From a virus, in the IMG/VR virus record IMGVR_UViG_3300028908_000005, positions 27,977 through 91,976 of that record: a DNA stretch of 64,000 nt. The stretch is one strand, 5' to 3'. The notes beneath the pieces are model-generated. The model worked only from the letters and a program-made list of their open reading frames with translations. It did no database searches and was not told where the DNA came from. The translations under genes were made by a program, and so were the position numbers. Positions 653 through 16,915 of the stretch are shown here, piece after piece; the first letter of the stretch is position 1, and the number at the start of each line of letters is the position of its first letter.

Positions 653-2776
653 TTACACTTCCGAATAAACTACGTTGTCGAACAAGTAAGATAATCGCGG
701 ATCGTGCGTTACGAACAACAATTGCAACCCGTTAGTCGACGCAAGTTTCCGCAGCTGTTTCAACGCATCGGGCAAGCGGGCTAAGTGCTGCTCGTCCAAA
801 TACGCCTGCGCCTCGTCGAGCACCAAAACATCACTGCCAATAAACAGTGTATTCAATGCAATGCGCAACGCAAAAGCCAAAACGACGCGCTGCCCAACGG
901 ACAACCGCCGATCCGGTATCCGACGCCCATCAGCGAACAAAGCCGTGAAGCCTAAATCTTCAGTCGGCTCAACGCGGAACGGCGCATCGAAAATCTCCAA
1001 AGTCTCGTTGATATCTCCCAATAACCGTTCCATGTAGGTGTACGTCACAACCCGCTGCAACTCGTCGCGGTGGAAAATGCGTCGCAACTTCGTCATATGC
1101 TCCAAAGCTGCTTTAACACGCTCACGTTTCGCGATTTGCGCGTCAGCACGTTGCAACACACCTTCCATAACACCGAGCTGCCGCCTCAAATCGGTTAAAC
1201 TGTCAGTCAAAACGCGGATATTCGCTTCGATCTCGCTCTGGTCTCGTAACTGCGATTCCATCGCCTCCACGTCGTCACTGACTTCGATCGCATAGGCTTC
1301 GGCCAGCTTGCGGCTCGCCATTTCCTCTTCGTCTTTGATATTCGCTCGCGTCGACTCGTACTCGGTCTTCACTTTCGTCTGCGCCACCAACGTCTCGGAA
1401 ACACGCAAACCAGCTCGCTGCAATTGCTCACGACCGCGCCGCAGCTTGTTCAACTCTTCCTCGTCAGGCGGATCGCCCAACTTCGCCACAGCCTCGTCCA
1501 GCCGCTCCTGCAAGCGCCGCAACCGTTGCAAGCTTTCGTTGTATGACTTGAGCCGCTGCTCATAGTCGTGATACTGCTCGTACCTGGCCTTAACGTCGGC
1601 AGCCGCAGCTTCCAACTGCGCAATCTCTTGCTGCAAAGACGCCGATAGCGTTTGCTTGTCGACCGGCTGCCCGCATGTCGGGCAGTTCGCTTCATCGACT
1701 TGCTGCAGCTTGGCCAATCTGGCACGCGCATGTTCCAGCTGCGACGTCAACGAAGCGAACTCGCCGTACAATTCGCGCACTCTGTCGGGTGAATAGTCCA
1801 CAATCTCGGTCGTCGGCTCGCTTATGGTCGACGCCAACGTAATGACCGCCTGCTCCAACGACGCAACTTCATTCGCCCGCTCAGTGTAAAGCTGGGCCGC
1901 CGCGTTGAGCTCGGATAAACGCTCTTCGACATCGCCGTACTCTGCCAACAATTGATCGAACGCACGTTTAGCTTCGTCGTGCTCGGCGACAGCTTCGGCT
2001 AACGCTACAGCCAACTCGCCAAACCGCTCCGTCTTGGGCAATACCGCGTCAATACGTCGCTGCGCCTCGGCATACAATTGCTGCTGGCGGTCGCGCGCAG
2101 CAATCTGCCTACGGTACTCAGCCACCGTCTCGGGCGATAAACGGACGGCTTCGAGTCGAGACAATTCGGCCTCGTACTTATCGCGCTTCGCAAACATCTC
2201 GGCCAACGTCGACCTGACTTGCTCGATATCGTCAGGATACGGCGGAATCTCGACACGACTCGTTGCCGTCATAATTGCCTGCCAGATCCGCTCCGCCGTG
2301 TCCGTCCCAAAGAGCCGCGCCAGCTCCTTGGCGCGATCAGCCGGGCGCAGCTCCAACCACGCTGTAATCTGCTGCTGGCGCACGAAAATGTGCTCCTGCA
2401 GATAGCGCCGCGAAATGCCCAACCGCCTTTCGATCTCTTCGTTGACCTCGACGATCGTACGCCCGTAACGCTCGCCGTTGACCGTCAGTAACACTTTGTT
2501 CGGCCGCAAACCGCGATAGACCTCAATCGTGTCGCCGCGATGCTCCAGCGTTAATCGCACATACGCTCGGCTGCCTTCGGGTGCTCCTTGGCGTATGTCG
2601 TCGGCCTTCGTACCAGTGCCGCCAGCATCCCCGGTCAATGCGTAAAGCATCGCCCGAATCATGTTCGATTTGCCGGAGCCGTTCGGGCCGGCAATCAAGT
2701 TGAAATGCGGACTGAACTCGACCGTACGGTCGTCATACTGGCAAAAGTTCACCAGTTCAAGTTTCTGAAGTTTCAC
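653..2776 (-). CDS. sbcC: SbcC/Rad50-like SMC ATPase
   Basis: Probable GTG start at 2776 (VKLQKLELVNF). Walker A GPNGSGKS, long coiled coil with Zn hook CPTCGQ, signature LSVGQ, Walker B/D-loop VLVLDEAQAYLD, H-loop VTHD. Confidence 0.92.
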   Translation of the reverse strand: MKLQKLELVNFCQYDDRTVEFSPHFNLIAGPNGSGKSNMIRAMLYALTGDAGGTGTKADDIRQGAPEGSRAYVRLTLEHRGDTIEVYRGLRPNKVLLTVNGERYGRTIVEVNEEIERRLGISRRYLQEHIFVRQQQITAWLELRPADRAKELARLFGTDTAERIWQAIMTATSRVEIPPYPDDIEQVRSTLAEMFAKRDKYEAELSRLEAVRLSPETVAEYRRQIAARDRQQQLYAEAQRRIDAVLPKTERFGELAVALAEAVAEHDEAKRAFDQLLAEYGDVEERLSELNAAAQLYTERANEVASLEQAVITLASTISEPTTEIVDYSPDRVRELYGEFASLTSQLEHARARLAKLQQVDEANCPTCGQPVDKQTLSASLQQEIAQLEAAAADVKARYEQYHDYEQRLKSYNESLQRLRRLQERLDEAVAKLGDPPDEEELNKLRRGREQLQRAGLRVSETLVAQTKVKTEYESTRANIKDEEEMASRKLAEAYAIEVSDDVEAMESQLRDQSEIEANIRVLTDSLTDLRRQLGVMEGVLQRADAQIAKRERVKAALEHMTKLRRIFHRDELQRVVTYTYMERLLGDINETLEIFDAPFRVEPTEDLGFTALFADGRRIPDRRLSVGQRVVLAFALRIALNTLFIGSDVLVLDEAQAYLDEQHLARLPDALKQLRKLASTNGLQLLFVTHDPRLSYLFDNVVYSEV

Positions 2777-3878
2777 CAACGAGCTCCTCGAAAATAGCCT
2801 TCGCTTCGGTAACAGGATCAGCCGCACGGACCAACCTGACAGCATTCTGGTAAACCGCTTCGTCGTCCCGATAAAGCTCGGCAAGCCCGCGCAACAGCGC
2901 TTCTTTACCGCCGCCGGCGACGATGTGATCGCGCTTATCCTTCGGAATGGCAACTGCAGGGCCCTGCTCCGGCGGCGACACGCTGATAAACAAATGCACC
3001 GAATCGCCCGCCCGCCGCCGAATGAGTTCGACTGCGTCAGGAATATCCGCACGCACCTGAACCCAAACGATGTTCTTCTCGATCTCCGGCGGTACGTGCG
3101 GCTGCGGCTGCGACACTTGCGACTCGTCCCAACGAGCCAACAAGCTGTCCAAGTCGGCTTCGCTGTTGACGTACCACATGAAACACTGCCGCTCCAATAG
3201 CCGCCGAGGCTCCACATGCAAGTCGTCGTACAGAAGATAAACCCGCTTCGGTGCGTTCTCGTTGATCTTCTGCCGACACAACGGACCAGGCGACACGAAA
3301 GGCAAGCATTTGCTGCCAAACTCGCGATACATCCCGCAGTGGAAATCGCCGGATACGATCAAACGATGCTCCTGGCAAGCATCCAACCAGACGTCGCCCA
3401 AGACATCGCCCATCAGATCCTTCCAAACCTGATGCGTGACGAATACGTCAGCCGCCGCAACCTTCCCGACAGCCTCGACGACTTCGCTCGGATGCTGATA
3501 ATCCAAACCGGCAAACGCCAGATTGCCGACCTCGATCGGCGTATCGGTAAGATGCGTTGCCGCATGCGAAAGTGTCGAAATAATCGGCGGTTGCGAAAGT
3601 TCGTGCTGGCCTTGGACGTACAACACGCGACAGCTCGCCGCATCAGCCGCTGACAAGAATCGCTGCATCGTCGCCAAAGCAGTCGATCGTTGCAACTTTT
3701 CGTTGAATATGTCGCCGGCAAGCACCACGGCTCGCGGGGACAGCTGTTCCACGATATTCGCTACTTGACGGATGCCGTAGTCGATATCGCCAACCAAATC
3801 GGGGTGGTCAGCCCAAATGTACGGCATGCGGCGGATATGCCAGTCAGCCGTCAAAACTGCGATAAGCTCGTGTGACAC
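2757..3878 (-). CDS. sbcD: SbcD/Mre11-like metallophosphoesterase nuclease
   Basis: Motifs TADWH, LAGDIFN, QGQHE, VTHQ, SGDFH; overlaps the sbcC start. Confidence 0.88.
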   Translation of the reverse strand: MSHELIAVLTADWHIRRMPYIWADHPDLVGDIDYGIRQVANIVEQLSPRAVVLAGDIFNEKLQRSTALATMQRFLSAADAASCRVLYVQGQHELSQPPIISTLSHAATHLTDTPIEVGNLAFAGLDYQHPSEVVEAVGKVAAADVFVTHQVWKDLMGDVLGDVWLDACQEHRLIVSGDFHCGMYREFGSKCLPFVSPGPLCRQKINENAPKRVYLLYDDLHVEPRRLLERQCFMWYVNSEADLDSLLARWDESQVSQPQPHVPPEIEKNIVWVQVRADIPDAVELIRRRAGDSVHLFISVSPPEQGPAVAIPKDKRDHIVAGGGKEALLRGLAELYRDDEAVYQNAVRLVRAADPVTEAKAIFEELVGETSET

Positions 3879-4246
3879 TAAATATCCCTCCGTTCAAGAA
3901 GCTTGTTGAACTGATCGACCGTCAACGGCGGCGCGTCCAGTTGCCGATGACTGTAAAGTTGCACGCCAAAGTTATAAACTGCGTCCTTTTCGGCTTGAGT
4001 CGAAATACCCATGCTTTCATAAAGACCAGGCGGTACCGCCAGCCGGTGCGTACCGTCACGAACCTGCGACACCAGCGACTCTTTGAAATCGAGCCATAGC
4101 TCGTTGAGCTGCCGCCCATGTCGCATAGCCAACGAAAACTGCAACGTGCCGGCCTCAGCGCCGTACCAGGCAACCGCATCGGCAGCAGCTGCAAGTTCGC
4201 GCTGCAGTGTCTCACGGTAAAGCGATGCAAACAGTCTCGCACTCAT
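3878..4246 (-). CDS. Hypothetical protein
   Basis: ATG 4246 overlaps the upstream stop; fills the gap in an operon. Confidence 0.65.
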   Translation of the reverse strand: MSARLFASLYRETLQRELAAAADAVAWYGAEAGTLQFSLAMRHGRQLNELWLDFKESLVSQVRDGTHRLAVPPGLYESMGISTQAEKDAVYNFGVQLYSHRQLDAPPLTVDQFNKLLERRDI

Positions 4247-5610
4247 AGATCGATCTCCTTTATGCGAGCAACAAGTTCCGTTGTACTGCACGATACGGGC
4301 GGCTTCGGCGCTATACTGCAGAAATCGCCGCCGCAGGCCGCCACCGTGCTCCCTTCCGGTATCCCCGTCGGCGTATACCCCGGCCCTTTGAAGTACAGCC
4401 GCGGCTTGAGTTGCCGCAATATCTGCTGCGCAGTACGGCTGCTAAACGACGTCACCGCCGCCACGCTCTCCAACGCCGCTAACGAGAACATCCGCTGCTG
4501 GAGCGGAATGATCGGTCGCGAATAACCCTTGTTCTCCCGCGCTGACGCATCGTCGTTCACCAACACGAACGCCGGTGACATATAGCGATTTCTCGCCTCT
4601 GTCAACAAGGCGATATGCCCCACATGCATCAAGTCGAAAACGCCGTTGGTCGTCGGAAACACCTTGGCCAGCTGCGGCCCGAACGTCAGCGACAATTTCG
4701 GGGACAGAATCTTGCGCTGGATATCGCCAGCAATGTACTCGCCCCAGGCATCGAATAGCGATATCGGACACGGACCCACGTTGTCACAAGCTGCCGTCGC
4801 TGCAGCCGACGCGAACTCCAAGGCGGTCTTTGGCTCTAGTCCAAACAACTCAGCCATCACGTACGACGCTGTCAGCACGTCGCCGGCACCGACGGAATCG
4901 CATACCTGCCGTTGCCTGGTCAGCACGCTCTGCCCGTCGGAAGTAATCGCGCCGCGCGGACTCGTGATGATCAGCCGCTCCGTATTGAGCTGGTAGGCCA
5001 AAGTCTCCGTATCCTCAACACCCAACCGCAGTTGCATCACCGCCGCTTCGTCGCTATTCGGGAATATCGCCGTCGAGGGCGGATAGCGATGGAAATCGCC
5101 TTTGCTGTGCGGATCGATGTAGATTGGCGTCGTCACACCGCGAAATGCCACCGCTGCCGCCCCTACGGCGTCACCGCCGTAATCGGCCAGCACGATTGCG
5201 TCGTAAGCGTACGCGCCCAGCAAATACTCCACCTCATGCCGCAACTCACCTAACGCCGTCGCCGGCAACGCGTGATACTCCCGCGGCGTTATGTCGTGGC
5301 GAGCCAGCAAAGCGCCGTCGCGAGAATAGTATCGCCGGCGGATACGAGGTGGCCGCCGATGCGATATCGCAACGCTCACACCTTCGCCCGGTGCGTACTT
5401 GAGTCGCTCGAAGCAAACCAAGTCGACGTCGGCGCCGTACTTGCCGAGCTGCCGCGCAATCAGCGCCGCACCGCCATATCGGACATCATTCGGGGTCGTC
5501 GATATCTGATACACGGGGATCGGTGTCGTCTGGTCGACTCGGTCGCACTTGATATCGTACCGCTCGTCCGCAACGACATCACCGACCACCAGAATCTTGA
5601 AGTTCGCCAT
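4243..5610 (-). CDS. hldE: HldE/RfaE-like bifunctional heptose kinase / nucleotidyltransferase
   Basis: N-terminal PfkB kinase (ILVVGDVVADE, GGAA, LADY, DSVGAGD) fused to a cytidylyltransferase domain (TNGVFDLMHVGH, NDDAS...KG.SRPI, YFKG). Confidence 0.85.
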   Translation of the reverse strand: MANFKILVVGDVVADERYDIKCDRVDQTTPIPVYQISTTPNDVRYGGAALIARQLGKYGADVDLVCFERLKYAPGEGVSVAISHRRPPRIRRRYYSRDGALLARHDITPREYHALPATALGELRHEVEYLLGAYAYDAIVLADYGGDAVGAAAVAFRGVTTPIYIDPHSKGDFHRYPPSTAIFPNSDEAAVMQLRLGVEDTETLAYQLNTERLIITSPRGAITSDGQSVLTRQRQVCDSVGAGDVLTASYVMAELFGLEPKTALEFASAAATAACDNVGPCPISLFDAWGEYIAGDIQRKILSPKLSLTFGPQLAKVFPTTNGVFDLMHVGHIALLTEARNRYMSPAFVLVNDDASARENKGYSRPIIPLQQRMFSLAALESVAAVTSFSSRTAQQILRQLKPRLYFKGPGYTPTGIPEGSTVAACGGDFCSIAPKPPVSCSTTELVARIKEIDL

Positions 5611-5962
5611 TCTGCTGCTCCAACGAGAATATGAGCCGCCCATCGCCGTCTATCACGACAGGCTCGGAAAGATCGACGTGCGGCCGTACGCACGATGCTA
5701 GAAATTTGCCGTCCCGGTGCCACTGTATGTCCAGCCACGGGCCGTGCCTGGAATCGTACAGATACAAGTACACGCGGTCGCTCGAATTAGGTAACCCGGC
5801 AAGCGTAAGCGTATACAGCAGCGAATCTTCTGTCGTCGCTCCTGCGGTCAAAGAAAGCAGCGATGCCAGCGAAGCATACAGCTCCGCTGGCACCACGTAA
5901 ACTGCCGCAATTACCCCAGGCTGCTGGTGCAGCGCTGCCGGCAAGATCGGTTCATTCGCCAT
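5579..5962 (-). CDS. Hypothetical protein
   Basis: Overlaps both neighbours in the operon. Confidence 0.55.
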   Translation of the reverse strand: MANEPILPAALHQQPGVIAAVYVVPAELYASLASLLSLTAGATTEDSLLYTLTLAGLPNSSDRVYLYLYDSRHGPWLDIQWHRDGKFLASCVRPHVDLSEPVVIDGDGRLIFSLEQQNGELQDSGGR

Positions 5963-7477: not shown

Positions 7478-7851
7478 CAGGTTACAGAAACCGCATGTGT
7501 TAATTTTTTACCTTGTTTTATAGGCTAAAGTCCACTTTAGAGGCCAATTTCGCCAATTTGTTGTCACAGCAAATTTTGATTTTACACAATAAAAACATAC
7601 CACCTCTGGGGTTTGAAACGACTAGCTGCGGAATTTTCCAATCGGGTGGTTTTTACCACCTTTGGATTGAGATTATGTTTCAATAGTCTCTCTCCCTGCC
7701 GCCGCCGAACTAAACGTATGACCTCAAAGGTTGTAGAAAACTCTGTCATTTTGACACACAATCTAGTAGACCTTGGTTGTGTGCTAACAATTTGTCACAC
7801 TTCTGCCGCCGAAATGCTTGCATTTGTGCGACCAAAAAAAGAATTATTTGA

Positions 7852-7887
7852 GCGCAAAAACAACGGCCTGAGTCGTAGCTCAGGCCG
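7852..7887 (-). terminator. Intrinsic terminator
   Basis: On the minus strand CGGCCTGAG-ctacga-CTCAGGCCG is followed by TTGTTTTT, just after the stop at 7908. Confidence 0.7.
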
Positions 7888-7907
7888 CCGTTTCGGTATC
7901 CGGATAC

Positions 7908-8327
7908 TTATTTCTTGGACTTCTTGCAGGAGTCGAGTTCTGGATACTTCGCGCACACTTTTGCTTTCACCTTCGCCGGATCAGAAGCGTACCGCCGATA
8001 AGCTAGCGCTGCGATAGCTCTTTTCTTCGTATCGATCGGGAAACTGCCACTCGGCTCATGTTTCTTACTTGGGAATACTTGTTTTGATTTCGGCAGCTTC
8101 TCCCGCCGTTCTTGTGTTATTTCGGAGTACTTCCGAAACATCTTCTCGTGCTTCGCTTTGAGCTTCCGCAGCTTCTTCCTTTTCGTTTCGGCAAACTCTG
8201 TCGCCACCGACGGTTTCACCTTCTTGGCCAGTTGTTTGACCTTCTTGCTTGGCGCTTCGATTTCGCCTTTCTGTACGGCATGGACCATGCCGAACAGCCG
8301 CTGCTGCGCCTTCGATTTAGCGGGCAT
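7908..8327 (-). CDS. Small Lys-rich protein, DUF3008-like N-terminus
   Basis: MPAKSKAQQRLFGMVHAVQKGE start typical of DUF3008-like phage proteins; AGGAGG RBS; C-terminal FPIDTKKRAIAALAY. Confidence 0.75.
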   Translation of the reverse strand: MPAKSKAQQRLFGMVHAVQKGEIEAPSKKVKQLAKKVKPSVATEFAETKRKKLRKLKAKHEKMFRKYSEITQERREKLPKSKQVFPSKKHEPSGSFPIDTKKRAIAALAYRRYASDPAKVKAKVCAKYPELDSCKKSKK

Positions 8328-8396
8328 AATGTTTAACCTCCTGATTGGTTTGTTGTCCAATCCGGATTATAACACTCTGCCGACATAGAAGAAAAT

Positions 8397-10222
8397 AACC
8401 ATGCGATGCCTTGCCGAGCAGCGACTAGCCGCGCCAAGCCCTACCTAGCCGTGCCAAACCTCGCCGGGCTCTGCCCAGCGTGGCCAAGCCAAGCCAAAAG
8501 AAATCCCAGCAGCCGCCGTTAGACGACTGCTGGGCAATACCATGCAATACCGTGCCTTGCCCGGCAACGCCGCGCCTGGCCCCGCAGTGACAAGCCTTAC
8601 CGTGCTCGAGAAGCCTACGAAGTCCCAGCAGCCGCCGTTAGACGGCTACTGGGCAATACCATGCAATACCGTGCAGTGCCCCGCAACGACTAGCCGAGCC
8701 ATGTAGTGCCGGACCCCGCAGTGCCACACCATGCCATACCAGGAGAAATCCCAGCAGCCGCTGCTAAACGGCTACTGGGCAATACCTCACATCGCCGGGC
8801 AATACCTCGCATTGCCTCGCCGTACCATACCGAGCCCAGCAATGCCTTACACTGCCTAGCGTTACCGTGCCCAGCCGTGCTCGAGAAGCCTACGAAGTCC
8901 CAGCAGCCGCCGTTAGACGGCTACTGGGCGATGCCAAGCCTTGCTTCGGCAAGCGATGCTCTGCCTGGCCAGGCAACGCCCTGCCCAGCGCAGCCGCGCC
9001 TTGCCATAGCTGTTTTGCCACGCACGACCCAGCCTTGCCATACTCTGCCAAACCACGGCTTGCCAGCTGAAATCCCAGCAGCCGCTGTCAAACGGCTACT
9101 GGGCAATACCTTGCAATACCATGCAATACCTCGCAATGCCCAGCATTACCTCGCACCGCAGTGCCTTGCCATACCTAACCTTGCGCTGCGCTACCATGCC
9201 TCGCCACCCCTCGGCGCGCCGTGCCGCTCTTGAGAGCAGCAAGCAGAAATCCCAGCAGCCGCCGCTAGACGACTACTGGGCAATACCATGCAATGCCGCG
9301 CAGTACGGCGCCATGCCCCGCCCAGCCTAGCGCAGCCGAGCCAAAAGAAATCCCAGCAGCCGCCGCTAGACGACTACTGGGCAATACCATGCAATGCCGT
9401 ACACAGCCGTGCCAAACCTAGCCGAGCCATACCTGGCCTCGAACTGCCCTGCCCTACCGAGCCTAACCAAACCAGGCCGTGCCGTGTAAATCCCAGTAGC
9501 CGCCGCTAGACGACTACTGGGCAATACCTTGCAATGCCGCGCAGTACGGTGCCATGCCCCGCCCGGCCGAGCCCAGCAAGGCCACGGCTCACCCTGCCGC
9601 GCCGAGTAAATCCCAGTAGCCGCGGTCAAACGGCTACTGGGCAGTACCTTGCATTGCCACGCAGCGCCGTGCAAAGCCGAACAATGCCATACACTGCGTC
9701 GCCAAACCCCGCCCCGCATTACCAAGCCGAACGATACCTAGCCGAACCACGCCCTGCCCATCTTGGCCAAGCCTCGCCGTATGAAGCCTCGGCAGCGGCG
9801 ATTAAACCGTTGCCGAGTAATTGCCTTGCACCACCGGGGCAAGCCGAGCCTTGCACTGGCAGGCCGAACCCTGCAAAACCATGCCCATCCGGAGCATGCC
9901 GAGCCACGCAAATCCAAGCAGCCGCCGCTAGACGACTGCTTGGCAATACCTTGCAATGCCTGGCATCGCCAAGCCCAGCCCCGCCGTGCATCGCCATGAC
10001 GAGCTGCCGCCGTGCCGGGCCACGCCGATCCGTGCCGTGGGCAAGCCGAGCCTTGCAGTTCCAGGCCGTGCACTACCAAACCTCGCCCTGCCGCGCCGAG
10101 TAAATCCCAGCAGCCGCGGTCAAACGGCTACTGGGCGATATCATGCAATGCCGGACCTCACCAGACCTCGCCGGGCCTTACCAAACCCCGCCGGACCCGG
10201 CCTCGCCACACCTTGGCTTGCA
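8397..10222 (-). ncRNA. Structured repeat array: 13 GGY-NN pentamer tracts separated by 12 conserved hairpins (candidate guide-RNA array for the adjacent RAMP gene)
   Basis: 30-nt hairpins start at 8505, 8624, 8750, 8899, 9074, 9251, 9352, 9492, 9612, 9788, 9914 and 10106. Minus-strand unit: (GGY-NN)n, TGCAWGGTATTG, CCCAGYAGYCG-N8-CGGCTRCTGGG, AYTT. Stem mismatches read as G.U on the minus strand. The repeat structure is certain; RNA expression is inferred. Confidence 0.85.
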
Positions 10223-10235
10223 TCGAAACTCGGGT

Positions 10236-10829
10236 CTATGCGGCTGCAGACCGGGTCTTCTCGTCGACTTTCCACTTCGTGACGACGAACCGCCCATAAG
10301 GGCCTTTCGTGTCCGGGCGGAAATCTCCCAAGCCGATTCGTTTACCGGCTGCGTCGACCAACTCGCGCGTCAACCCGAGCGACATAATCTCTTCGTCGAG
10401 GTCCAAGGTAAACGCCAATTTCCAATCGGTAAAGCATGGACGGTGCCGCAGGATTCGACCGCCTGTCGACGGAATGCGAACCGCGCGGGTGTCTACCATC
10501 CACGGTTCCTTGTGGATAATTGGCAGCTCGATCTCAACAATCGCCAGCGCGCTCGGCACCAGCGACGTCTTTTGCGTTGTGATCTTCGACTTCCCGTTCT
10601 TGAAAAACTTTCCGGCGGCGATAATGGCGCGGAACAGATTCGGACCGGGGATAATCGGCTTACCGGTCTTTTCGCTGATATACAGGCAATCTTCAGCCTG
10701 TTCTTTCGGCGATTTCTGTTCGCCAACCTGGGCTGCTCTTGTGCCCTTGGTTGCAGCCATCGCAGCCGCATCGGTAAATTTGTGAACCAACAACGGGGAA
10801 ACGCCTTCGATCTCACAACTGATCAACAT
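10236..10829 (-). CDS. Stand-alone RAMP/Cas7-like RNA-binding protein
   Basis: RAMP hallmarks in order: first strand IEGVSPLLVH, PIIPGPNLFRAI (compare P.IPGSSLKGA), thumb-like VDTRAVRIPSTGGRILRHRP, WKLAFTL strand, C-terminal Gly-rich loop AGKRIGLGDFRPDTKGPYGRF. Confidence 0.8.
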   Translation of the reverse strand: MLISCEIEGVSPLLVHKFTDAAAMAATKGTRAAQVGEQKSPKEQAEDCLYISEKTGKPIIPGPNLFRAIIAAGKFFKNGKSKITTQKTSLVPSALAIVEIELPIIHKEPWMVDTRAVRIPSTGGRILRHRPCFTDWKLAFTLDLDEEIMSLGLTRELVDAAGKRIGLGDFRPDTKGPYGRFVVTKWKVDEKTRSAAA

Positions 10830-10861
10830 ACTACACACCTTACAAGAAAATGTCTTCGGTC

Positions 10862-10881
10862 GCGGGCTTAATTACGCCCGC
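10862..10881 (-). terminator. Short intergenic hairpin between the upstream gene and the RAMP gene
   Basis: GCGGGC-N8-GCCCGC immediately after the stop at 10885; weak U-tract. Confidence 0.35.
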
Positions 10882-10884
10882 AGC

Positions 10885-11295
10885 TTATTGAGCCTTATGG
10901 CCTTGGGCCGCGTCCTCGCGCGCCCATTTCAGCAGTAAATCGTAGAGTTCGTCGATCGACGCGACAGTCTCGAAATATGCGTAACTGTCGCTCGGTTCGT
11001 CGCCGAAACTCATACCGCCGGTAAGCAGCATCGCGTAGTCCATTCCCGGAAATCGCACTGCGCTAACATCCCGGCGATCGGGAGCTCCCAGAACGTGCTC
11101 GACGGCGTCCATGATCATCGCGCGGCGTTCTGCCGCTGTGACGTATTCGTCGCCGGCATCGAGCTGTCCTGTAAACTCGGCAATATCTTTAAGATCGCGA
11201 TCGCTGAACTTGTTTAGCAGTTCGCGAATCGCCGCCCGCCGCGAGTCCGTCAACTCTGCTTGCGGAACACCCATGAGGATTAAATCAGCGCCCAT
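10885..11295 (-). CDS. Hypothetical protein
   Basis: Acidic 136-aa ORF in operon orientation with AAGG RBS. Confidence 0.75.
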   Translation of the reverse strand: MGADLILMGVPQAELTDSRRAAIRELLNKFSDRDLKDIAEFTGQLDAGDEYVTAAERRAMIMDAVEHVLGAPDRRDVSAVRFPGMDYAMLLTGGMSFGDEPSDSYAYFETVASIDELYDLLLKWAREDAAQGHKAQ

Positions 11296-11299
11296 AACA

Positions 11300-11524
11300 C
11301 TACCTTTTGATTAACGGACATTCACGCAGCAACGCTTCGACCGCCTCGTCGCCGCCATGCTCGTGTGCAAACTTTTTGAACTGTTGCGACAATCGCACCA
11401 CGTTCAAAGTGCGGATACGTCTGCGGCATTTGCTGCAGGCCAGCAAATAACGCCGCTTGCCAGGTCGCAACCACGCGATCGATGTCAAATGCAATGCGTG
11501 GTCATCGTCCTCATACAACAACAT
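11300..11524 (-). CDS. Small hypothetical protein (CxxC...HxH)
   Basis: Fills the gap and overlaps the RNase H stop. Confidence 0.55.
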   Translation of the reverse strand: MLLYEDDDHALHLTSIAWLRPGKRRYLLACSKCRRRIRTLNVVRLSQQFKKFAHEHGGDEAVEALLRECPLIKR

Positions 11525-13567: not shown

Positions 13568-16500
13568 ATGTCAAACCTCCATACAGCTACCCAATTACCC
13601 GAAACATTTACACGAGTTTTTGAGTTGCAGAGAAGTGACGGCACAGCGATCCGCGACGAAGAGCGGCTATCGCGATTCGTTCATCTGATCCAAAACAAGC
13701 GTATACACTCTTTCGTCCACGCTTTGCCGCTCATTCTCAACTTGAAGGGCCGGCCATACACGCTCAAAGATCATGCCCCGTTCGAAGAACTGTTCCGGTT
13801 CAAACAGCCGCGGCGGACAACCTACAAGACGGGACGGCAAGTAGGTAAGACCGTATCGCAGGCTGCAGCAATCGTAGCTCGACTTGCGTCGATGCCTAAC
13901 AAGTATCACCCAGAGCCGCATACGATGCTGCACATCACGCCGCTCTATGAACAGATCCGGCGTTTCAGCACGATGTTCCTCGGACCGTTCCTGCAAACGT
14001 CGCCGATACGACAGCTGCTCGTCGACCCGCGCTGCGTCGAAAGTGTGCTGCACCGCACGTTCCGTAACGGCTCGCAAATCCTGCTGTCGTTCACCGGTAT
14101 CGGCCCGGAACCGAACCGAATACGTGGTGCTTTCGCAGACGAATTATCGGAAGATGAATCAGTCACCGGTGACACGCTGCTGACGACGCCGTTAGGCCAA
14201 ATACCGATCAAAGACGCTAGACCCGGCGACATCGTAAAATGTTTTACCGAAGATAACCACGTACGATGGACGACCGTATCCAAAGTGTGGTACGCTGGCA
14301 GACGCCACTGCTACCGCATCACGCTAGAGGATGGATCTTATGTCGACAGCACATCAGAATCGTACGTGGCCACAGATTCCGGATGCTTTCGAGTATCGCA
14401 ACTCATCGAAATTGCCGCCGGAAGCCGCAGCTGCGCAACGCGAAATCGTACTAGCGAACAAGAACAAACCACTGAACCAACAGCAGCTGCAGCTAGTGTA
14501 CGGGACGATGCTCGGCGACGGGCATCTGACGCCGCGAGGTGCCTACGTGGCGACACAGAGCTACGCGTTCAGGGAATACCACTGGGCAAAGTACACGATA
14601 TTGTCCGATTACGTCTACGGCGTACCGTCGAAGCAACAGAAACGCGGAACAGACTTCTGGTCGGTGAAATTCTGGACTGCCGCCACACCGGAATTAGCGT
14701 CCCTACGGCAGCTTTGGTACCCGGACGGCCACAAACGCGTAAATCGCGAAATCTTGCAGACTATCGACGAACTCGGATTTTTGGACTGCGTAATGTGGTG
14801 GATATGCGACGACGGAACCAGATGGGGTCCGAAGTACTCGCCTACACTAAGCCTTTGTACGCACGCTTTTCCACAAAGCGATGTCGAACTTTTGTCGAAC
14901 TGGCTGATGGAACACGGCTATCGATCATCGATTCGCGAGCAGACCCAGTACAGAAAGCCGTTGTATACCCTGATGTTTGCAACGGAGTCAGCCGTACGGC
15001 TGATGCGGAAACTGACACCTTTGGTACATCCTACTATGCTATACAAGGTGGCTGTTACTGGGAGGAACGACACGGAAATCTGTCTGTTCTGCAAACAACC
15101 ATTCCAGTTGAAAACGTTGCGGCGTCGGACCGACCTCGCGTGGTTCCCTTGCTGCGACAACCCCGCGTGCAAGTCTGCCAAGAAGAAGTTCATGCGCCAA
15201 CGCGAACTGTCCAAGCCCGGCGCCAAAGCCAAACGGCAGCAAGCAAAAAGAGAATACGTGCAACGAAACAAAGCCGCAATCTACGCCAAAAACGCCGAAT
15301 GGGCCAGAAACAATCCGGACAAGGTTCGCGAAATTTGGCGACGCGCCGACGCCAAGAAACGCCGCAAGCAACAAGAAGCTATGCCGCCGTGCGTCATTTG
15401 CGGCAAACAAATCAAATTGGAACGCGGCATGAAACATACGCGAACCGCTTGCGGCGGCTGCCAGCCGGAACTGCTGCGGCGACGGGCCAAGATCGCTTAC
15501 TACAAGCGCCGCATGCGTACCGCCAAGACACAGGAACAACGCGAAGCCGCAGCTGCGAAAATGCAAGCCCTGAAAAAGTCGATTGGCGTCGAATAGTCAG
15601 CATCGAATACGTCGGCATACGCGATGTTTACGACGTTGAAACCGCCGGACCGCATACCGTAATACTCAACGGGCATGCGCGACCGCAATGCCAAGACATC
15701 GACCCAAGCCACGAAGGCGTGGTTGACGAAACCATGTCACACTCTACTTGGGCCGTCAAGAAGAGCACCGGCACGCCAAAGACGCTCGACAACTTGCTGC
15801 AGATCAAGTGGGAAGAAAGCAGCCAAGCGGAGTGGTTCGTGCCGTGCTTTCATTGTACCACAAACGGACATCCGACCTACAACATTCCGTCGATCGAATA
15901 TCATCTCGACGCTATGATCGGCCCTTGGCGCGAAGATATATCCGACAAGAGCCCAGCGACGATTTGCTACAAATGCGGTAAGCCGATTTCACCGCGATTC
16001 GGTCGTTGGGTGCATCGTTACAAAGCGCGGCGTTGGACGCATGCCGGCTATCATATACCGCAGATTATTATGCCGATCCACTTCGCTGACCCAAACAAGT
16101 GGTCAACGTTATTACTCAAACGACGCACATTGCCAGCTTATCTGTTTTACAACGAAGTGCTCGGCGAAGCTTACGATACGGCAGCAAAACTTGTCACGCT
16201 CGCCGACCTTAACAAAGCTGCCGTGCTTTGGCCGAACGACGACCACGAAGCTCTGCAGCGACGTCGGAATTATTCACTCGTCGTCCTCGGCGTAGACTGG
16301 GGCGGCGGCGGTAAAGCCGGTGACAGCTACACGACACTTGCGCTCGTTGGCGTTCTGCCGACCGGCGAACTGAATGTCATCTGGGGCAAGCGACTGCTCA
16401 CGCCGCACGATCATATTCGCGAAGCCAAAGAAATCATACACTACTGCAACATGTTCTCGCCCGATTTCGTTGCACACGACTACACTGGCGGCGGTTCGCT

Positions 16501-16915
16501 ACGCGAAACGATATTGATCCAGTCAGGCTATCCGCTGCAGAAGATCATGGCCTGCAGCCTTGTACGCAGCGCTCGGCAGGCTCCGTGCCAGTTCATACCG
16601 GCTACGATGCAGCATCCGCGCGATCACTACAACGTCGACAAGGCCAGAACGCTGCTGCTTACGTGTGCCATGATCAAACTTGGGCGGCTCAGATTCTTTC
16701 AGAACGATTACATCTCGGAATCAGAGCCGGGGCTTATCCGCGATTTCTTGGCCCTCGTTGAAGATAAAATCAGCTCGCAAGCCGCTGCTGAGATTTACCG
16801 AATCACGAAGATCGCGAATAAATCTGACGATTTTGCGCAAGCCGTCAACTTCGCCTGCGTCGCTATCTGGCACGCCACGCGGTCCTGGCCAAACTTGGCG
16901 CTCGGCAACAACTAG
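13568..16915 (+). CDS. terL: Terminase large subunit (lambda GpA-like) containing an intein
   Basis: Walker A-like KTGRQVGKT, IRG.FADELSEDE|CQD Walker B split by the intein, STGTPK coupling motif, Zn-ribbon segment, FYNEVLGEAY, RNase H-like nuclease LGVDWG...DDFAQA. Confidence 0.92.
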   Translation: MSNLHTATQLPETFTRVFELQRSDGTAIRDEERLSRFVHLIQNKRIHSFVHALPLILNLKGRPYTLKDHAPFEELFRFKQPRRTTYKTGRQVGKTVSQAAAIVARLASMPNKYHPEPHTMLHITPLYEQIRRFSTMFLGPFLQTSPIRQLLVDPRCVESVLHRTFRNGSQILLSFTGIGPEPNRIRGAFADELSEDESVTGDTLLTTPLGQIPIKDARPGDIVKCFTEDNHVRWTTVSKVWYAGRRHCYRITLEDGSYVDSTSESYVATDSGCFRVSQLIEIAAGSRSCATRNRTSEQEQTTEPTAAAASVRDDARRRASDAARCLRGDTELRVQGIPLGKVHDIVRLRLRRTVEATETRNRLLVGEILDCRHTGISVPTAALVPGRPQTRKSRNLADYRRTRIFGLRNVVDMRRRNQMGSEVLAYTKPLYARFSTKRCRTFVELADGTRLSIIDSRADPVQKAVVYPDVCNGVSRTADAETDTFGTSYYAIQGGCYWEERHGNLSVLQTTIPVENVAASDRPRVVPLLRQPRVQVCQEEVHAPTRTVQARRQSQTAASKKRIRATKQSRNLRQKRRMGQKQSGQGSRNLATRRRQETPQATRSYAAVRHLRQTNQIGTRHETYANRLRRLPAGTAAATGQDRLLQAPHAYRQDTGTTRSRSCENASPEKVDWRRIVSIEYVGIRDVYDVETAGPHTVILNGHARPQCQDIDPSHEGVVDETMSHSTWAVKKSTGTPKTLDNLLQIKWEESSQAEWFVPCFHCTTNGHPTYNIPSIEYHLDAMIGPWREDISDKSPATICYKCGKPISPRFGRWVHRYKARRWTHAGYHIPQIIMPIHFADPNKWSTLLLKRRTLPAYLFYNEVLGEAYDTAAKLVTLADLNKAAVLWPNDDHEALQRRRNYSLVVLGVDWGGGGKAGDSYTTLALVGVLPTGELNVIWGKRLLTPHDHIREAKEIIHYCNMFSPDFVAHDYTGGGSLRETILIQSGYPLQKIMACSLVRSARQAPCQFIPATMQHPRDHYNVDKARTLLLTCAMIKLGRLRFFQNDYISESEPGLIRDFLALVEDKISSQAAAEIYRITKIANKSDDFAQAVNFACVAIWHATRSWPNLALGNN
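14159..15688 (+). mobile_element. Intein (510 aa) in the terminase Walker B
   Basis: N-terminal Hint region SVTGDTLLTTPLGQIPIKDARPGDIV...YRITLEDG; C-terminal RIVSIEYVGIRDVYDVET.GPHTVILNG..RPQ followed by Cys+1. Removing it restores ...EDE-CQD. Confidence 0.88.
14340..15596 (+). CDS. LAGLIDADG homing endonuclease with basic/Zn-finger C-terminus, nested in the +1 frame within the intein
   Basis: Two LAGLIDADG motifs (VYGTMLGDG, WWICDDG), LSLCTHAF, VHPTMLYKV, then CxxC pairs. Start codon uncertain. Confidence 0.88.
   Translation: MSTAHQNRTWPQIPDAFEYRNSSKLPPEAAAAQREIVLANKNKPLNQQQLQLVYGTMLGDGHLTPRGAYVATQSYAFREYHWAKYTILSDYVYGVPSKQQKRGTDFWSVKFWTAATPELASLRQLWYPDGHKRVNREILQTIDELGFLDCVMWWICDDGTRWGPKYSPTLSLCTHAFPQSDVELLSNWLMEHGYRSSIREQTQYRKPLYTLMFATESAVRLMRKLTPLVHPTMLYKVAVTGRNDTEICLFCKQPFQLKTLRRRTDLAWFPCCDNPACKSAKKKFMRQRELSKPGAKAKRQQAKREYVQRNKAAIYAKNAEWARNNPDKVREIWRRADAKKRRKQQEAMPPCVICGKQIKLERGMKHTRTACGGCQPELLRRRAKIAYYKRRMRTAKTQEQREAAAAKMQALKKSIGVE

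What the first reader, a model, noticed from the sequence alone, without database searches (positions are those of the whole stretch)
8397..10829. Candidate non-CRISPR RNA-guided system: solo RAMP/Cas7-like gene plus an array of GGY-NN coded RNAs
Seen: a 197-aa protein with RAMP motifs (SPLLVH, PIIPGPNL, C-terminal Gly loop GLGDFRP..GPYGRF) is followed 13 nt after its stop, on the same strand, by 1.8 kb of non-coding DNA. This DNA holds 12 conserved hairpins spaced 101-192 nt apart. The intervals are not free sequence like CRISPR spacers: they are phased pentamers with a fixed GGY and a variable NN. No cas1, cas2, cas3, cas5, cas6 or cas10 is recognisable in the window. Established: RAMP/Cas7 proteins polymerise along guide RNA at a fixed nucleotide step. 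Inference: one subunit binds each GGY and displays NN, so the string of dinucleotides forms a discontinuous guide, probably aimed at rival phages/MGEs or host genes. From memory, unverified, this matches a recently reported phage system called VIPR (RAMP-like protein with GGY/NN RNAs), so it may be a new member and not a new class.
Basis: partly seen in the sequence, partly recalled or inferred. Interest (0 to 1): 0.97.

Follow-up and report, generated by a model that had tools for sequence, protein, structure and literature searches.

The report
Phage VIPR locus: Vipr plus 13 guides
An uncultured large phage carries a genuine VIPR system, a Cas7-like protein followed by 13 guide-RNA genes built from five-base GGY-NN repeats; this class was first described in 2026 preprints, so it is a new example and not a new kind, and what its guides target is still unknown.

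Summary
On the minus strand, a 197-aa gene (10829-10236) is followed by 1.84 kb of non-coding DNA (10235-8387) holding 13 tracts of in-phase YNNGG pentamers. Twelve tracts end in a conserved 13-bp hairpin; the last has a plain T-rich end.

The protein is a Vipr. It matches the solved SUSP1 Vipr chain by sequence (E 1.2e-5) and a SUSP1-clade Vipr by profile over its full length (99.2%). It keeps the GGY-binding residues. Its confident model (pLDDT 94.7) hits Csm3/Cas7 folds.

In 58 homologous loci, YNNGG tracts flank vipr in 45, always on its strand (1387 units against 0).

VIPR (Vipr plus vrRNA, 1-nt-skip code) is described in four 2026 bioRxiv preprints. This scan has also logged similar loci in at least 240 other genomes. 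So this is a new member of a known kind.

Local features: a large 13-guide array, guides of up to 28 units, a lineage-specific hairpin tail, and no recognisable vap gene.

No self-target and no credible external target turned up in exact-seed scans of IMG/VR and JGI metagenomes, or in a mismatch-tolerant vr1 scan of 406 genomes. Host, VIPR type and targets remain unresolved.

The parts
10236..10829 (-). vipr gene (197 aa plus stop): single-RRM RAMP with thumb and Gly-rich loop
   Evidence: Translation. PDB 36pp_D 'SUSP1 Vipr protein' E 1.2e-5. phrog_4652 E 5e-20. hhalign to a Felixounavirus Vipr 99.2%, E 5.6e-20. AF2 pLDDT 94.7. Foldseek hits to Csm3/Cas7 at E about 1e-7.
8387..10235 (-). vrRNA array: 13 guide units, 281 pentamers in all
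10102..10235 (-). vr1: 13 perfect YNNGG units (10215-10151), 3 near-constant units, then hairpin tail 10135-10102
   Evidence: fold.
9910..10101 (-). vr2: 31 units in three phase runs, then tail 9943-9910 (carries a compensatory C:G to A:U change)
9784..9909 (-). vr3: 18 units, then divergent hairpin tail 9817-9784 (stem kept through several double changes)
9608..9783 (-). vr4: 28 units, then tail 9641-9608
9488..9607 (-). vr5: 17 units, then tail 9521-9488; its 3' half resembles vr7
9348..9487 (-). vr6: 21 units, then tail 9381-9348 (terminator-like T run after the stem)
9247..9347 (-). vr7: 13 units, then tail 9280-9247 (terminator-like)
9070..9246 (-). vr8: 28 units with internally repeated constant units, then tail 9103-9070
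8895..9069 (-). vr9: 27 units in two phase runs, then tail 8928-8895
8746..8894 (-). vr10: 23 units, then tail 8779-8746 (terminator-like); shares its 5' leader with vr12
8620..8745 (-). vr11: 18 units, then tail 8653-8620
8501..8619 (-). vr12: 17 units, then tail 8534-8501 (terminator-like)
8387..8500 (-). vr13: 20 units, no hairpin; ends ...CATGG TTATTTTCTTCT, like the plain GGTATTTT / GGATTTT tails of relatives

Best explanation
This is a VIPR (Viral Interference Programmable Repeat) system carried by a large uncultured phage. Shown here: the vipr gene encodes a single-RRM RAMP homologous to the structurally solved SUSP1 Vipr, with the residues that hold the GGY bases conserved. The 1.84 kb after it encodes 13 vrRNA-like units on the same strand, each a run of YNNGG pentamers with a fixed GGY and a free NN. 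Twelve units are capped by three near-constant pentamers (CATTG CAWGG TATTG) and a 13-bp hairpin whose G.U pairs and compensatory changes fit an RNA made from the minus strand.

Inferred from the published mechanism (cryo-EM and genetics on SUSP1 VIPR): one Vipr protomer binds each pentamer and the protomers form a helical filament. GGY is flipped out and held (G1 by H16 and D169; G2 by R130 and F170; Y3 by R171 of the next protomer). The exposed NN pairs read double-stranded DNA while skipping every third base (NNx), forming an R-loop triplex that blocks transcription. No nuclease or helicase partner lies beside the locus, so silencing of rival mobile elements or host genes is more likely than cleavage.

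Also inferred: the array is co-transcribed with vipr. Phased pentamers start directly after the stop codon (the first perfect YNNGG unit 20 nt on), and there are no promoter-like gaps between units. The hairpins define and protect the 3' ends and cap the filament, as the SUSP1 pseudoknot does. Four of the 12 also look like leaky intrinsic terminators.
For: Protein: phmmer hit to PDB 36pp_D SUSP1 Vipr, E 1.2e-5. hhalign of the 79-sequence family profile to a Felixounavirus Vipr, 99.2%, E 5.6e-20, residues 1-185 against 1-189. Equivalences H17/H16, K33/R31, R138/R130, D177/D169, W178/F170 and R179/R171 come, read against paper .720927 sections 5-6. R130, R171, G166 and P172 are at least 90% conserved in the family. 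The AF2 model has pLDDT 94.7 and pTM 0.89 with an RRM plus beta-hairpin thumb plus Gly loop, and its top Foldseek hits are Csm3, Cmr4 and type VII Cas7.

Array: phasing statistics; strand-exclusive tracts; hairpin 97.4% paired, 5 pairs with double changes, 0 of 500 shuffles as good, one invariant and two variable U.G pairs.

Association: 45 of 58 homologous loci from many phyla have YNNGG tracts beside vipr, 1387 units on its strand and 0 on the other.

Context: phage record, terminase large subunit 3 kb away, no Cas1 or Pfam RAMPs match. No self-target reaches 80% NN match, as the paper reports for its own systems.
Against: Nothing here shows transcription, processing, RNP formation or DNA binding. 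No credible natural target was found. Exact seeds of 9-11 units from six guides gave three hits, whose flanking units match at chance level and which do not converge on one element. The full vr1 code with up to 3 mismatches gave nothing in 406 genomes. About 38% of units depart from perfect YNNGG and several long units change phase, so some guides may be decayed. No vap accessory gene is recognisable: the neighbours have no homologues beside vipr in relatives and no similarity to the gene directly downstream of vipr in the SUSP1-clade phage ESCO50, its presumed vap1. F170 replaces the stacking Trp of SUSP1.
Confidence: 0.88

Rival explanations
1. It is a VIPR-derived locus that is partly or wholly decayed. 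The protein is intact, but many guides are degenerate relics made by duplication and recombination between constant regions, and only a few units, such as vr1, still work.
For: 108 of 281 units are not perfect YNNGG. vr2 and vr9 change phase. vr8, vr10 and vr11 carry internal copies of the constant units. vr5/vr7, vr10/vr12 and vr2/vr3 share segments. No target was found for any guide tested.
Against: The paper states that internal degeneracy of vrRNAs is frequent in working systems. 249 of 281 units keep YNNNG. All 12 hairpins keep their pairing, including by compensatory change, which argues for continuing selection. The failure to find targets is expected from exact-seed searches with an unknown host.
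Confidence: 0.07
2. It is a Vipr-vrRNA complex with another output: it targets RNA, or recruits an unlinked nuclease encoded elsewhere in the missing half of the phage genome, so the outcome is destruction and not silencing.
For: The fold is closest to the RNA-targeting type III Cas7 (Csm3/Cmr4). The record is estimated at only about 44% complete. The paper describes types III-V with nuclease or helicase vap genes. Many close relatives have RusA and an SNF2/DEAD helicase just downstream of vipr.
Against: The residues that hold GGY are conserved with the DNA-binding SUSP1 Vipr. No nuclease or helicase adjoins vipr here. In the relatives, RusA and the helicase sit in an ordinary phage replication module with AAA_24 and DUF669, so they need not be VIPR partners.
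Confidence: 0.04
3. It is not an RNA system at all. The pentamer field and the 34-nt inverted repeats act as DNA (iterons, a packaging or replication site, or an odd CRISPR array with 34-nt repeats), and the adjacent RAMP-like gene is coincidental.
For: No expression data exist. There are regularly spaced conserved inverted repeats. ORF-free G-rich repeats can be DNA-binding sites.
Against: The stems hold U.G pairs that would be C.A mismatches on the other strand, and the tail model scores 61-87 bits on the minus strand against 19 bits or less on the plus strand. The 'spacers' are phased pentamers, not free sequence. No Cas1 or Pfam RAMPs match was found, and no other cas gene is recognisable. 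The pentamer tracts travel with vipr on its strand in 45 of 58 loci across phyla.
Confidence: 0.01

Closest known systems
VIPR systems (Vipr protein plus vrRNA); reference system is type II of Escherichia phage SUSP1 (bioRxiv 10.64898/2026.04.26.720920; structures in 10.64898/2026.04.26.720927, PDB 36pp; biology in 10.64898/2026.10.15.759431)
   Same: A lone single-RRM RAMP homologous to SUSP1 Vipr with conserved GGY-contact residues. Same-strand guide genes made of YNNGG pentamers with a fixed GGY and a hypervariable NN. A variable tract capped by a conserved structured 3' tail. Phage-borne. No cas genes. No self-targeting.
   Different: Only about 29% identical to SUSP1-clade Vipr, so it belongs to another clade; its type could not be assigned. 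13 guides in one downstream array against 4 in SUSP1. Tracts of 13-31 units against 9-16. The tail is a plain 13-bp hairpin, not a pseudoknot. No upstream vrRNA. No vap gene recognised. F in place of the stacking W178.
Other VIPR array architectures named in the discovery paper: staggered arrays, hammerhead-interspersed arrays and single-vrRNA loci (legends of figs S18-S20)
   Same: The nearest relatives found here fit these forms. L003 (69% identical Vipr) has 12 units separated only by GGATTTTAG, and L004 and L007 have single vrRNAs on each side of vipr. All share the terminal ...CAAGG-type units.
   Different: In the window a 34-nt hairpin sits between GGTATTG and ATTT in 12 of 13 units. 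That hairpin sequence has no exact match in IMG/VR and only weak model matches in 63 related loci. An archaeal relative (L049) has the same layout with an unrelated hairpin. No ribozyme was found (Rfam).
Class 1 CRISPR Cas7 backbone proteins (Csm3, Cmr4, type VII Cas7)
   Same: RRM core, thumb beta-hairpin and Gly-rich loop. Foldseek E 2e-7 to 1e-5, TM about 0.5-0.58. One subunit per fixed step of guide RNA, with a base flipped at each step.
   Different: 11-15% sequence identity. Step of 5 nt with 3 bases displaced, against 6 nt with 1. No Cas1 or Pfam RAMPs match in the record and no other cas gene recognised. No free-sequence spacers. The guide is read discontinuously.

Membership tests
VIPR system | Protein homologous to Vipr (the family seeded from X1U2U4 and SUSP1 Vipr) | tested here: met
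   phmmer to PDB 36pp_D 'SUSP1 Vipr protein', E 1.2e-5. Profile against a Felixounavirus Vipr: 99.2%, E 5.6e-20, near full length. tblastn hits in 73 Escherichia and 6 Felixounavirus phage records.
VIPR system | Minimal RAMP fold: one RRM, thumb, Gly-rich loop, no second RRM | tested here: met
   AF2 pLDDT 94.7; elements b1-a-b-a, beta-hairpin 111-133, a151-165, loop 166-180, b181-189. Csm3/Cas7 are the top Foldseek hits. 197 aa leaves no room for a second RRM.
VIPR system | Residues that hold GGY and the skipped base (SUSP1 H17, R138, D177, W178, R179, K33) | tested here: met
   H16, R130, D169, F170 (aromatic kept), R171 and R31 (basic kept), from the alignments read. E71/M72 align to P63/N64, which are not conserved.
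VIPR system | Adjacent same-strand tandem YNNGG repeats (at least 4 units) with conserved GGY and hypervariable NN | tested here: met
   281 units in 13 tracts. Information per position: 0.91, 0.15, 0.04, 0.74 and 1.48 bits. 96 in-phase pairs against 10.1 +/- 3.2 in shuffles.
VIPR system | Variable tract followed by a conserved, structured 3' tail | tested here: met
   12 of 13 units end in CATTG CAWGG TATTG plus a 13-bp hairpin, 97.4% paired, with 5 pairs showing double changes. It is a hairpin, not the SUSP1 pseudoknot.
VIPR system | No CRISPR array or cas genes; viral or proviral context | tested here: met
   IMG/VR virus record. Terminase. No Cas1 or Pfam RAMPs match in 92 kb. The record is about 44% complete, so this says nothing about the missing part.
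VIPR system | A vap accessory gene next to vipr (typical, not universal) | tested here: not met
   The flanking genes 10885-11295 and 7908-8327 have no Pfam, NCBIfam or PADLOC assignment, no homologue beside vipr in 58 relatives, and no similarity to the ESCO50 gene directly downstream of vipr, its presumed vap1. The paper says loci 'typically' hold a vap, so this does not exclude membership.
VIPR system | vrRNAs are expressed and co-purify with Vipr; the RNP binds dsDNA by the 1-nt-skip rule | not testable with these tools
   Needs small-RNA sequencing, pull-down and binding or repression assays.
VIPR system | Natural targets at 80% NN match or better under the NNx rule; none in the system's own genome | tested here: inconclusive
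   Own genome: best matches are about 52-71% of NN bases (vr1 24/40 = 60%) and equal to permuted controls, which fits. External: three seed-only hits at chance level and none in 406 genomes. The method requires exact seeds, so its sensitivity is low.
VIPR type I-VII assignment | Position in the published Vipr tree, plus vap and array type | not testable with these tools
   The type tables and figures are not held. It is not in the SUSP1 / P. fulva type II clade by identity (about 29%).
CRISPR-Cas | Direct repeats separated by free-sequence spacers, plus cas1/cas2 or effector cas genes | tested here: not met
   The intervals are phased pentamers of 67-158 nt. No Cas1 or Pfam RAMPs match.

The most novel reading that the evidence does not exclude
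The hairpin-tailed array could be a distinct VIPR sub-architecture. In it, a GC-rich stem inserted into the ancestral GGTATTTT tail would take over 3'-end formation (leaky termination or a host RNase cut) and filament capping. That would allow unusually long guides (up to 28 units, about 56 read bases) and a vap-independent mode of silencing. The same layout with an unrelated hairpin in a Methanoregula MAG (L049) would then mean the solution arose more than once.
Probability: 0.2. Interest if true: 0.5.

Novelty: new member of a known kind. Interest (0 to 1): 0.35.

Why it matters
It confirms that a reader working from raw sequence alone can spot VIPR loci, and it adds a well-resolved example from a large environmental phage unrelated to the E. 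coli and Pseudomonas models. The locus has 13 guides in one operon-like array, each with a clean hairpin boundary. That makes it a convenient natural substrate for three questions: how vrRNA arrays are transcribed and cut, how long a Vipr filament can be, and whether a vap partner is needed. It does not open a new class, because the system, its code and its structure are already in print.

Tried and rejected
1. Rfam scan of 7500-11500 at E up to 1: nothing, so there is no hammerhead or other known RNA between units.

2. Self-targeting under skip rules 0-3 in the 92-kb record: best scores equal the permuted controls.

3. Exact gapped seeds in IMG/VR. vr1 at 11 units and vr6 at 11 units: 0 hits. 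vr6 and vr13 at 9 units: 0 hits. vr1 at 9 units: one hit, L065, in a coding frame with the skip base at wobble, but its flanks match 4 of 8 bases and no other guide hits that locus. vr12 at 9 units: one hit, L066, with flanks at chance.

4. JGI metagenomes. vr7 at 10 units: 0 hits. vr1 at 10 units: one hit, L067, in a histidine-kinase-like gene with flanks at chance.

5. vr1 at 13 units with up to 3 mismatches: 0 hits in 5 genomes holding the closest Vipr relatives and in 401 genomes of one phylum.

6. All 12-unit sub-guides against the 464 kb of held loci, including relatives' vipr genes: no score above the controls.

7. Host inference from the terminase: only distant hits (21-30% identity) to phages of unrelated hosts. 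The closest Vipr relatives are spread over Planctomycetota, Magnetococcales, Victivallales and others, so no host call is possible.

8. vap search: see the membership table. The ESM Atlas gave no informative neighbours for the upstream 136-aa protein.

9. Codon-phase likelihood of NN strings: 11 of 16 runs favour codon positions 1-2, sense or antisense. This is suggestive only, because the guides share a composition and are not independent.

10. Reading the ORFs inside the array as genes: rejected. They have no family hits, and their only similarity is to spurious ORFs across other arrays.
Full report
**What is there.** All features lie on the minus strand. An ORF from 10829 to 10236 encodes 197 aa. 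The ATG at 10829 fits the N-termini of its homologues.

From 10235 down to 8387 there is no credible gene. The ORFs listed there have no family match, and they resemble only spurious ORFs across other such arrays. Instead the DNA reads as in-phase pentamers of the form YNNGG.

I parsed 281 units in 13 tracts of 13-31 units:
- Position 1 is C or T in 96% of units.
- Positions 2-3 are almost free (0.15 and 0.04 bits).
- Position 4 is G in 69% of units.
- Position 5 is G in 92% of units.
- 173 units are perfect YNNGG and 249 keep YNNNG.

In-phase neighbouring YNNGG pairs number 96. Five hundred dinucleotide-preserving shuffles gave 10.1 +/- 3.2, with a maximum of 21. Tracts of at least five units occur 17 times, all inside 8429-10215 on the minus strand. 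There are none elsewhere on either strand of the window or of the whole 92-kb record.

**Tails.** Twelve tracts end with three near-constant pentamers (CATTG CAWGG TATTG), then a 34-nt element, then ATTT. The element folds as a 13-bp stem with a 4-nt loop.

Across the 12 copies, 97.4% of cells pair and five pairs show changes on both sides. No shuffle out of 500 reaches the observed values, and sliding the partner columns destroys the pairing. One pair is U.G in all copies and two more are U.G in 5-7 copies. These would be C.A mismatches on the plus strand.

A covariance model of the tail scores the 12 copies at 61-87 bits on the minus strand and at most 19 bits on the plus strand. So the functional form is an RNA read from the same strand as the gene.

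Four of the 12 hairpins are followed by a T-rich run and meet a simple terminator rule. The 13th tract (8500-8399) lacks the hairpin and ends in TTATTTTCTTCT. That resembles the plain GGTATTTT and GGATTTT ends seen in relatives.

**The protein.**
- It has no match in Pfam, NCBIfam or PADLOC. It matches phrog_4652, a family of unknown function, at E 5e-20.
- A plain phmmer search of PDB sequences finds 'SUSP1 Vipr protein' (36pp_D) at E 1.2e-5 over the thumb and Gly-loop region.
- An exhaustive search of 1.84 billion representatives finds 3090 relatives at E of 1e-3 or better, the nearest 58% identical.
- A 79-sequence profile aligns with the Vipr of a Felixounavirus (the genus of Felix O1-type phages, taken here as the SUSP1 clade) at 99.2% probability and E 5.6e-20, covering residues 1-185 against 1-189.
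- AlphaFold2 with that alignment gives pLDDT 94.7 and pTM 0.89. The model has an RRM core, a beta-hairpin at 111-133 and a loop at 166-180.
- Foldseek against the PDB returns Csm3, Cmr4 and type VII Cas7 chains, at E 2e-7 to 1e-5 and TM about 0.5-0.58.

The cryo-EM paper names the residues that hold the GGY bases and the skipped target base. From the alignments:

| SUSP1 Vipr | P0001 | Note |
|---|---|---|
| H17 | H16 | same |
| K33 | R31 | basic kept |
| R138 | R130 | same |
| D177 | D169 | same |
| W178 | F170 | aromatic kept |
| R179 | R171 | same |
| E71/M72 | P63/N64 | differs |

**Does the array travel with the protein?** Yes. I fetched five IMG/VR loci (55-69% identity) and 58 loci from species-representative genomes. 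The genome loci come from Planctomycetota, Magnetococcales, Victivallales, Desulfobacterota, Alphaproteobacteria, Patescibacteria and Archaea.

Of the 58 loci tabulated (the 5 IMG/VR loci plus 53 of the genome loci), 45 have YNNGG tracts within tens of bases of vipr. That is 1387 units on the vipr strand and none on the other. Tracts lie upstream in 36 loci and downstream in 28. The window has only a downstream array.

Array forms differ even among close relatives. L003 has 12 units separated only by GGATTTTAG. L004 and L007 have single vrRNAs on each side of vipr.

The window's hairpin sequence has no exact match elsewhere in IMG/VR, and related loci give only weak model matches. An archaeal relative, L049 (Methanoregula MAG), has the same layout: GGCAAGGTTTTG followed by a GC-rich hairpin of unrelated sequence.

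**Context.** The window is bases 27977-91976 of a 91,976-bp IMG/VR virus record that CheckV rates about 44% complete. If that is right, the phage is roughly 200 kb (inference).

A terminase large subunit lies at 13568-16915. Nearly all long ORFs are on the minus strand, and there are no tRNAs. The terminase has only distant relatives among cultured phages, so the host is unknown. The record has no Cas1 or Pfam RAMPs match.

The genes beside the locus are 10885-11295 (136 aa) and 7908-8327 (139 aa). Neither has an informative family, a homologue beside vipr in relatives, or similarity to the gene directly downstream of vipr in the SUSP1-clade phage, its presumed vap1. In many relatives vipr sits in a phage replication module: sigma factor, AAA_24, DUF669, vipr, RusA, SNF2/DEAD helicase. 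None of these adjoin vipr here.

**What is known.** VIPR was reported in 2026.
- The discovery paper covers Vipr plus vrRNAs of 9-16 YNNGG repeats with a 3' tail. DNA recognition is by the NN pairs with one base skipped. It demonstrates programmable repression and phage defence. It defines seven types with vap1-6, and arrays that may be staggered, ribozyme-interspersed or single.
- A structural paper shows one protomer per repeat, the GGY contacts and the R-loop triplex.
- A third paper shows the phage-satellite arms race and solo vrRNAs.
- A fourth recovers 99 VIPR-like clusters from period-5 entropy.
- This scan's own index holds notes on VIPR-like loci in at least 240 other genomes.

The locus meets every sequence-level defining feature of VIPR that I could test, except a recognisable vap, which the paper calls typical and not obligatory.

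**How it most likely works.** Shown here: homology, fold, conserved contact residues, the phased code, the structured strand-specific tails, and the family-wide association of tracts with vipr.

Inferred from the published mechanism: Vipr polymerises on each vrRNA, one protomer per pentamer. It sequesters GGY and presents NN. The filament reads double-stranded DNA as NNx repeats and represses transcription.

My own inferences:
- The array is co-transcribed with vipr. Phased pentamers run on directly after the stop codon, and no promoter-like gaps separate the units.
- The hairpins set the 3' ends and cap the filament.
- Shared segments between vr5/vr7, vr10/vr12 and vr2/vr3, and internal copies of the constant units in vr8, vr10 and vr11, point to growth of the array by duplication and recombination.

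**Targets.** None could be established.
- The phage's own record gives best matches of about 52-71% of NN bases (vr1: 24 of 40, 60%), equal to permuted controls and below the paper's 80% criterion.
- Exact gapped seeds from vr1, vr6, vr7, vr12 and vr13 in IMG/VR and JGI metagenomes gave three hits. Their flanking units match at chance level and they do not converge on one element.
- The full vr1 code with up to three mismatches gave nothing in 406 genomes.
- A codon-phase likelihood test leans towards NN being codon positions 1-2 in 11 of 16 runs. That fits the published wobble-skip pattern but is weak evidence.

**Verdict.** This is a real and cleanly delimited VIPR locus. It is a new member of a known kind, with local peculiarities: 13 guides, long tracts, a lineage-specific hairpin tail and no evident vap. 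Host, type and targets are unresolved.

Noticed in passing
window 13568-16915 (+) and 14331-15596 (+): The terminase large-subunit gene is 1115 aa, but the PHROG and Pfam terminase matches cover only about residues 709-1103. An ORF of 421 aa in another frame inside it matches LAGLIDADG_2 homing endonuclease at E 8.6e-20.
   Followed up: partly
window 4243-5643 (-): A phage gene with PfkB kinase plus cytidylyltransferase-like domains, similar to bifunctional heptose kinase/adenylyltransferase HldE. It may be an auxiliary gene touching LPS heptose synthesis and hints at a Gram-negative-type host.
   Followed up: no
window 653-3319 (-): An 888-aa SMC/SbcC-like ATPase (AAA_23, SMC_N) in the replication/recombination region.
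   Followed up: no
L003:4145-4946 (+), IMGVR_UViG_3300044698_000422: The closest viral relative (69% identical Vipr) has 12 vrRNA units of about 60-80 nt upstream of vipr, separated only by GGATTTTAG. This is probably the 'staggered' array form of the discovery paper.
   Followed up: partly
L049:3380-3710 (+), Methanoregula sp. MAG: An archaeal Vipr relative (39% identity) has vrRNA tracts ending in GGCAAGGTTTTG followed by a GC-rich hairpin unrelated in sequence to the window's. Hairpin-capped vrRNAs therefore recur in the family.
   Followed up: partly
L014, L011 and about 15 other genome loci: In many bacterial MAG relatives vipr is embedded in a conserved phage module: sigma-70-like factor, AAA_24, DUF669, vipr, RusA, SNF2/DEAD helicase. 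Whether RusA or the helicase act as vap partners was not tested.
   Followed up: partly
window 47930-50881 (-) and 52480-54990 (-): Large proteins (983 and 836 aa) with a sub-threshold collagen-repeat match and a sub-threshold PT-repeat match. They may be tail-fibre or structural proteins.
   Followed up: no
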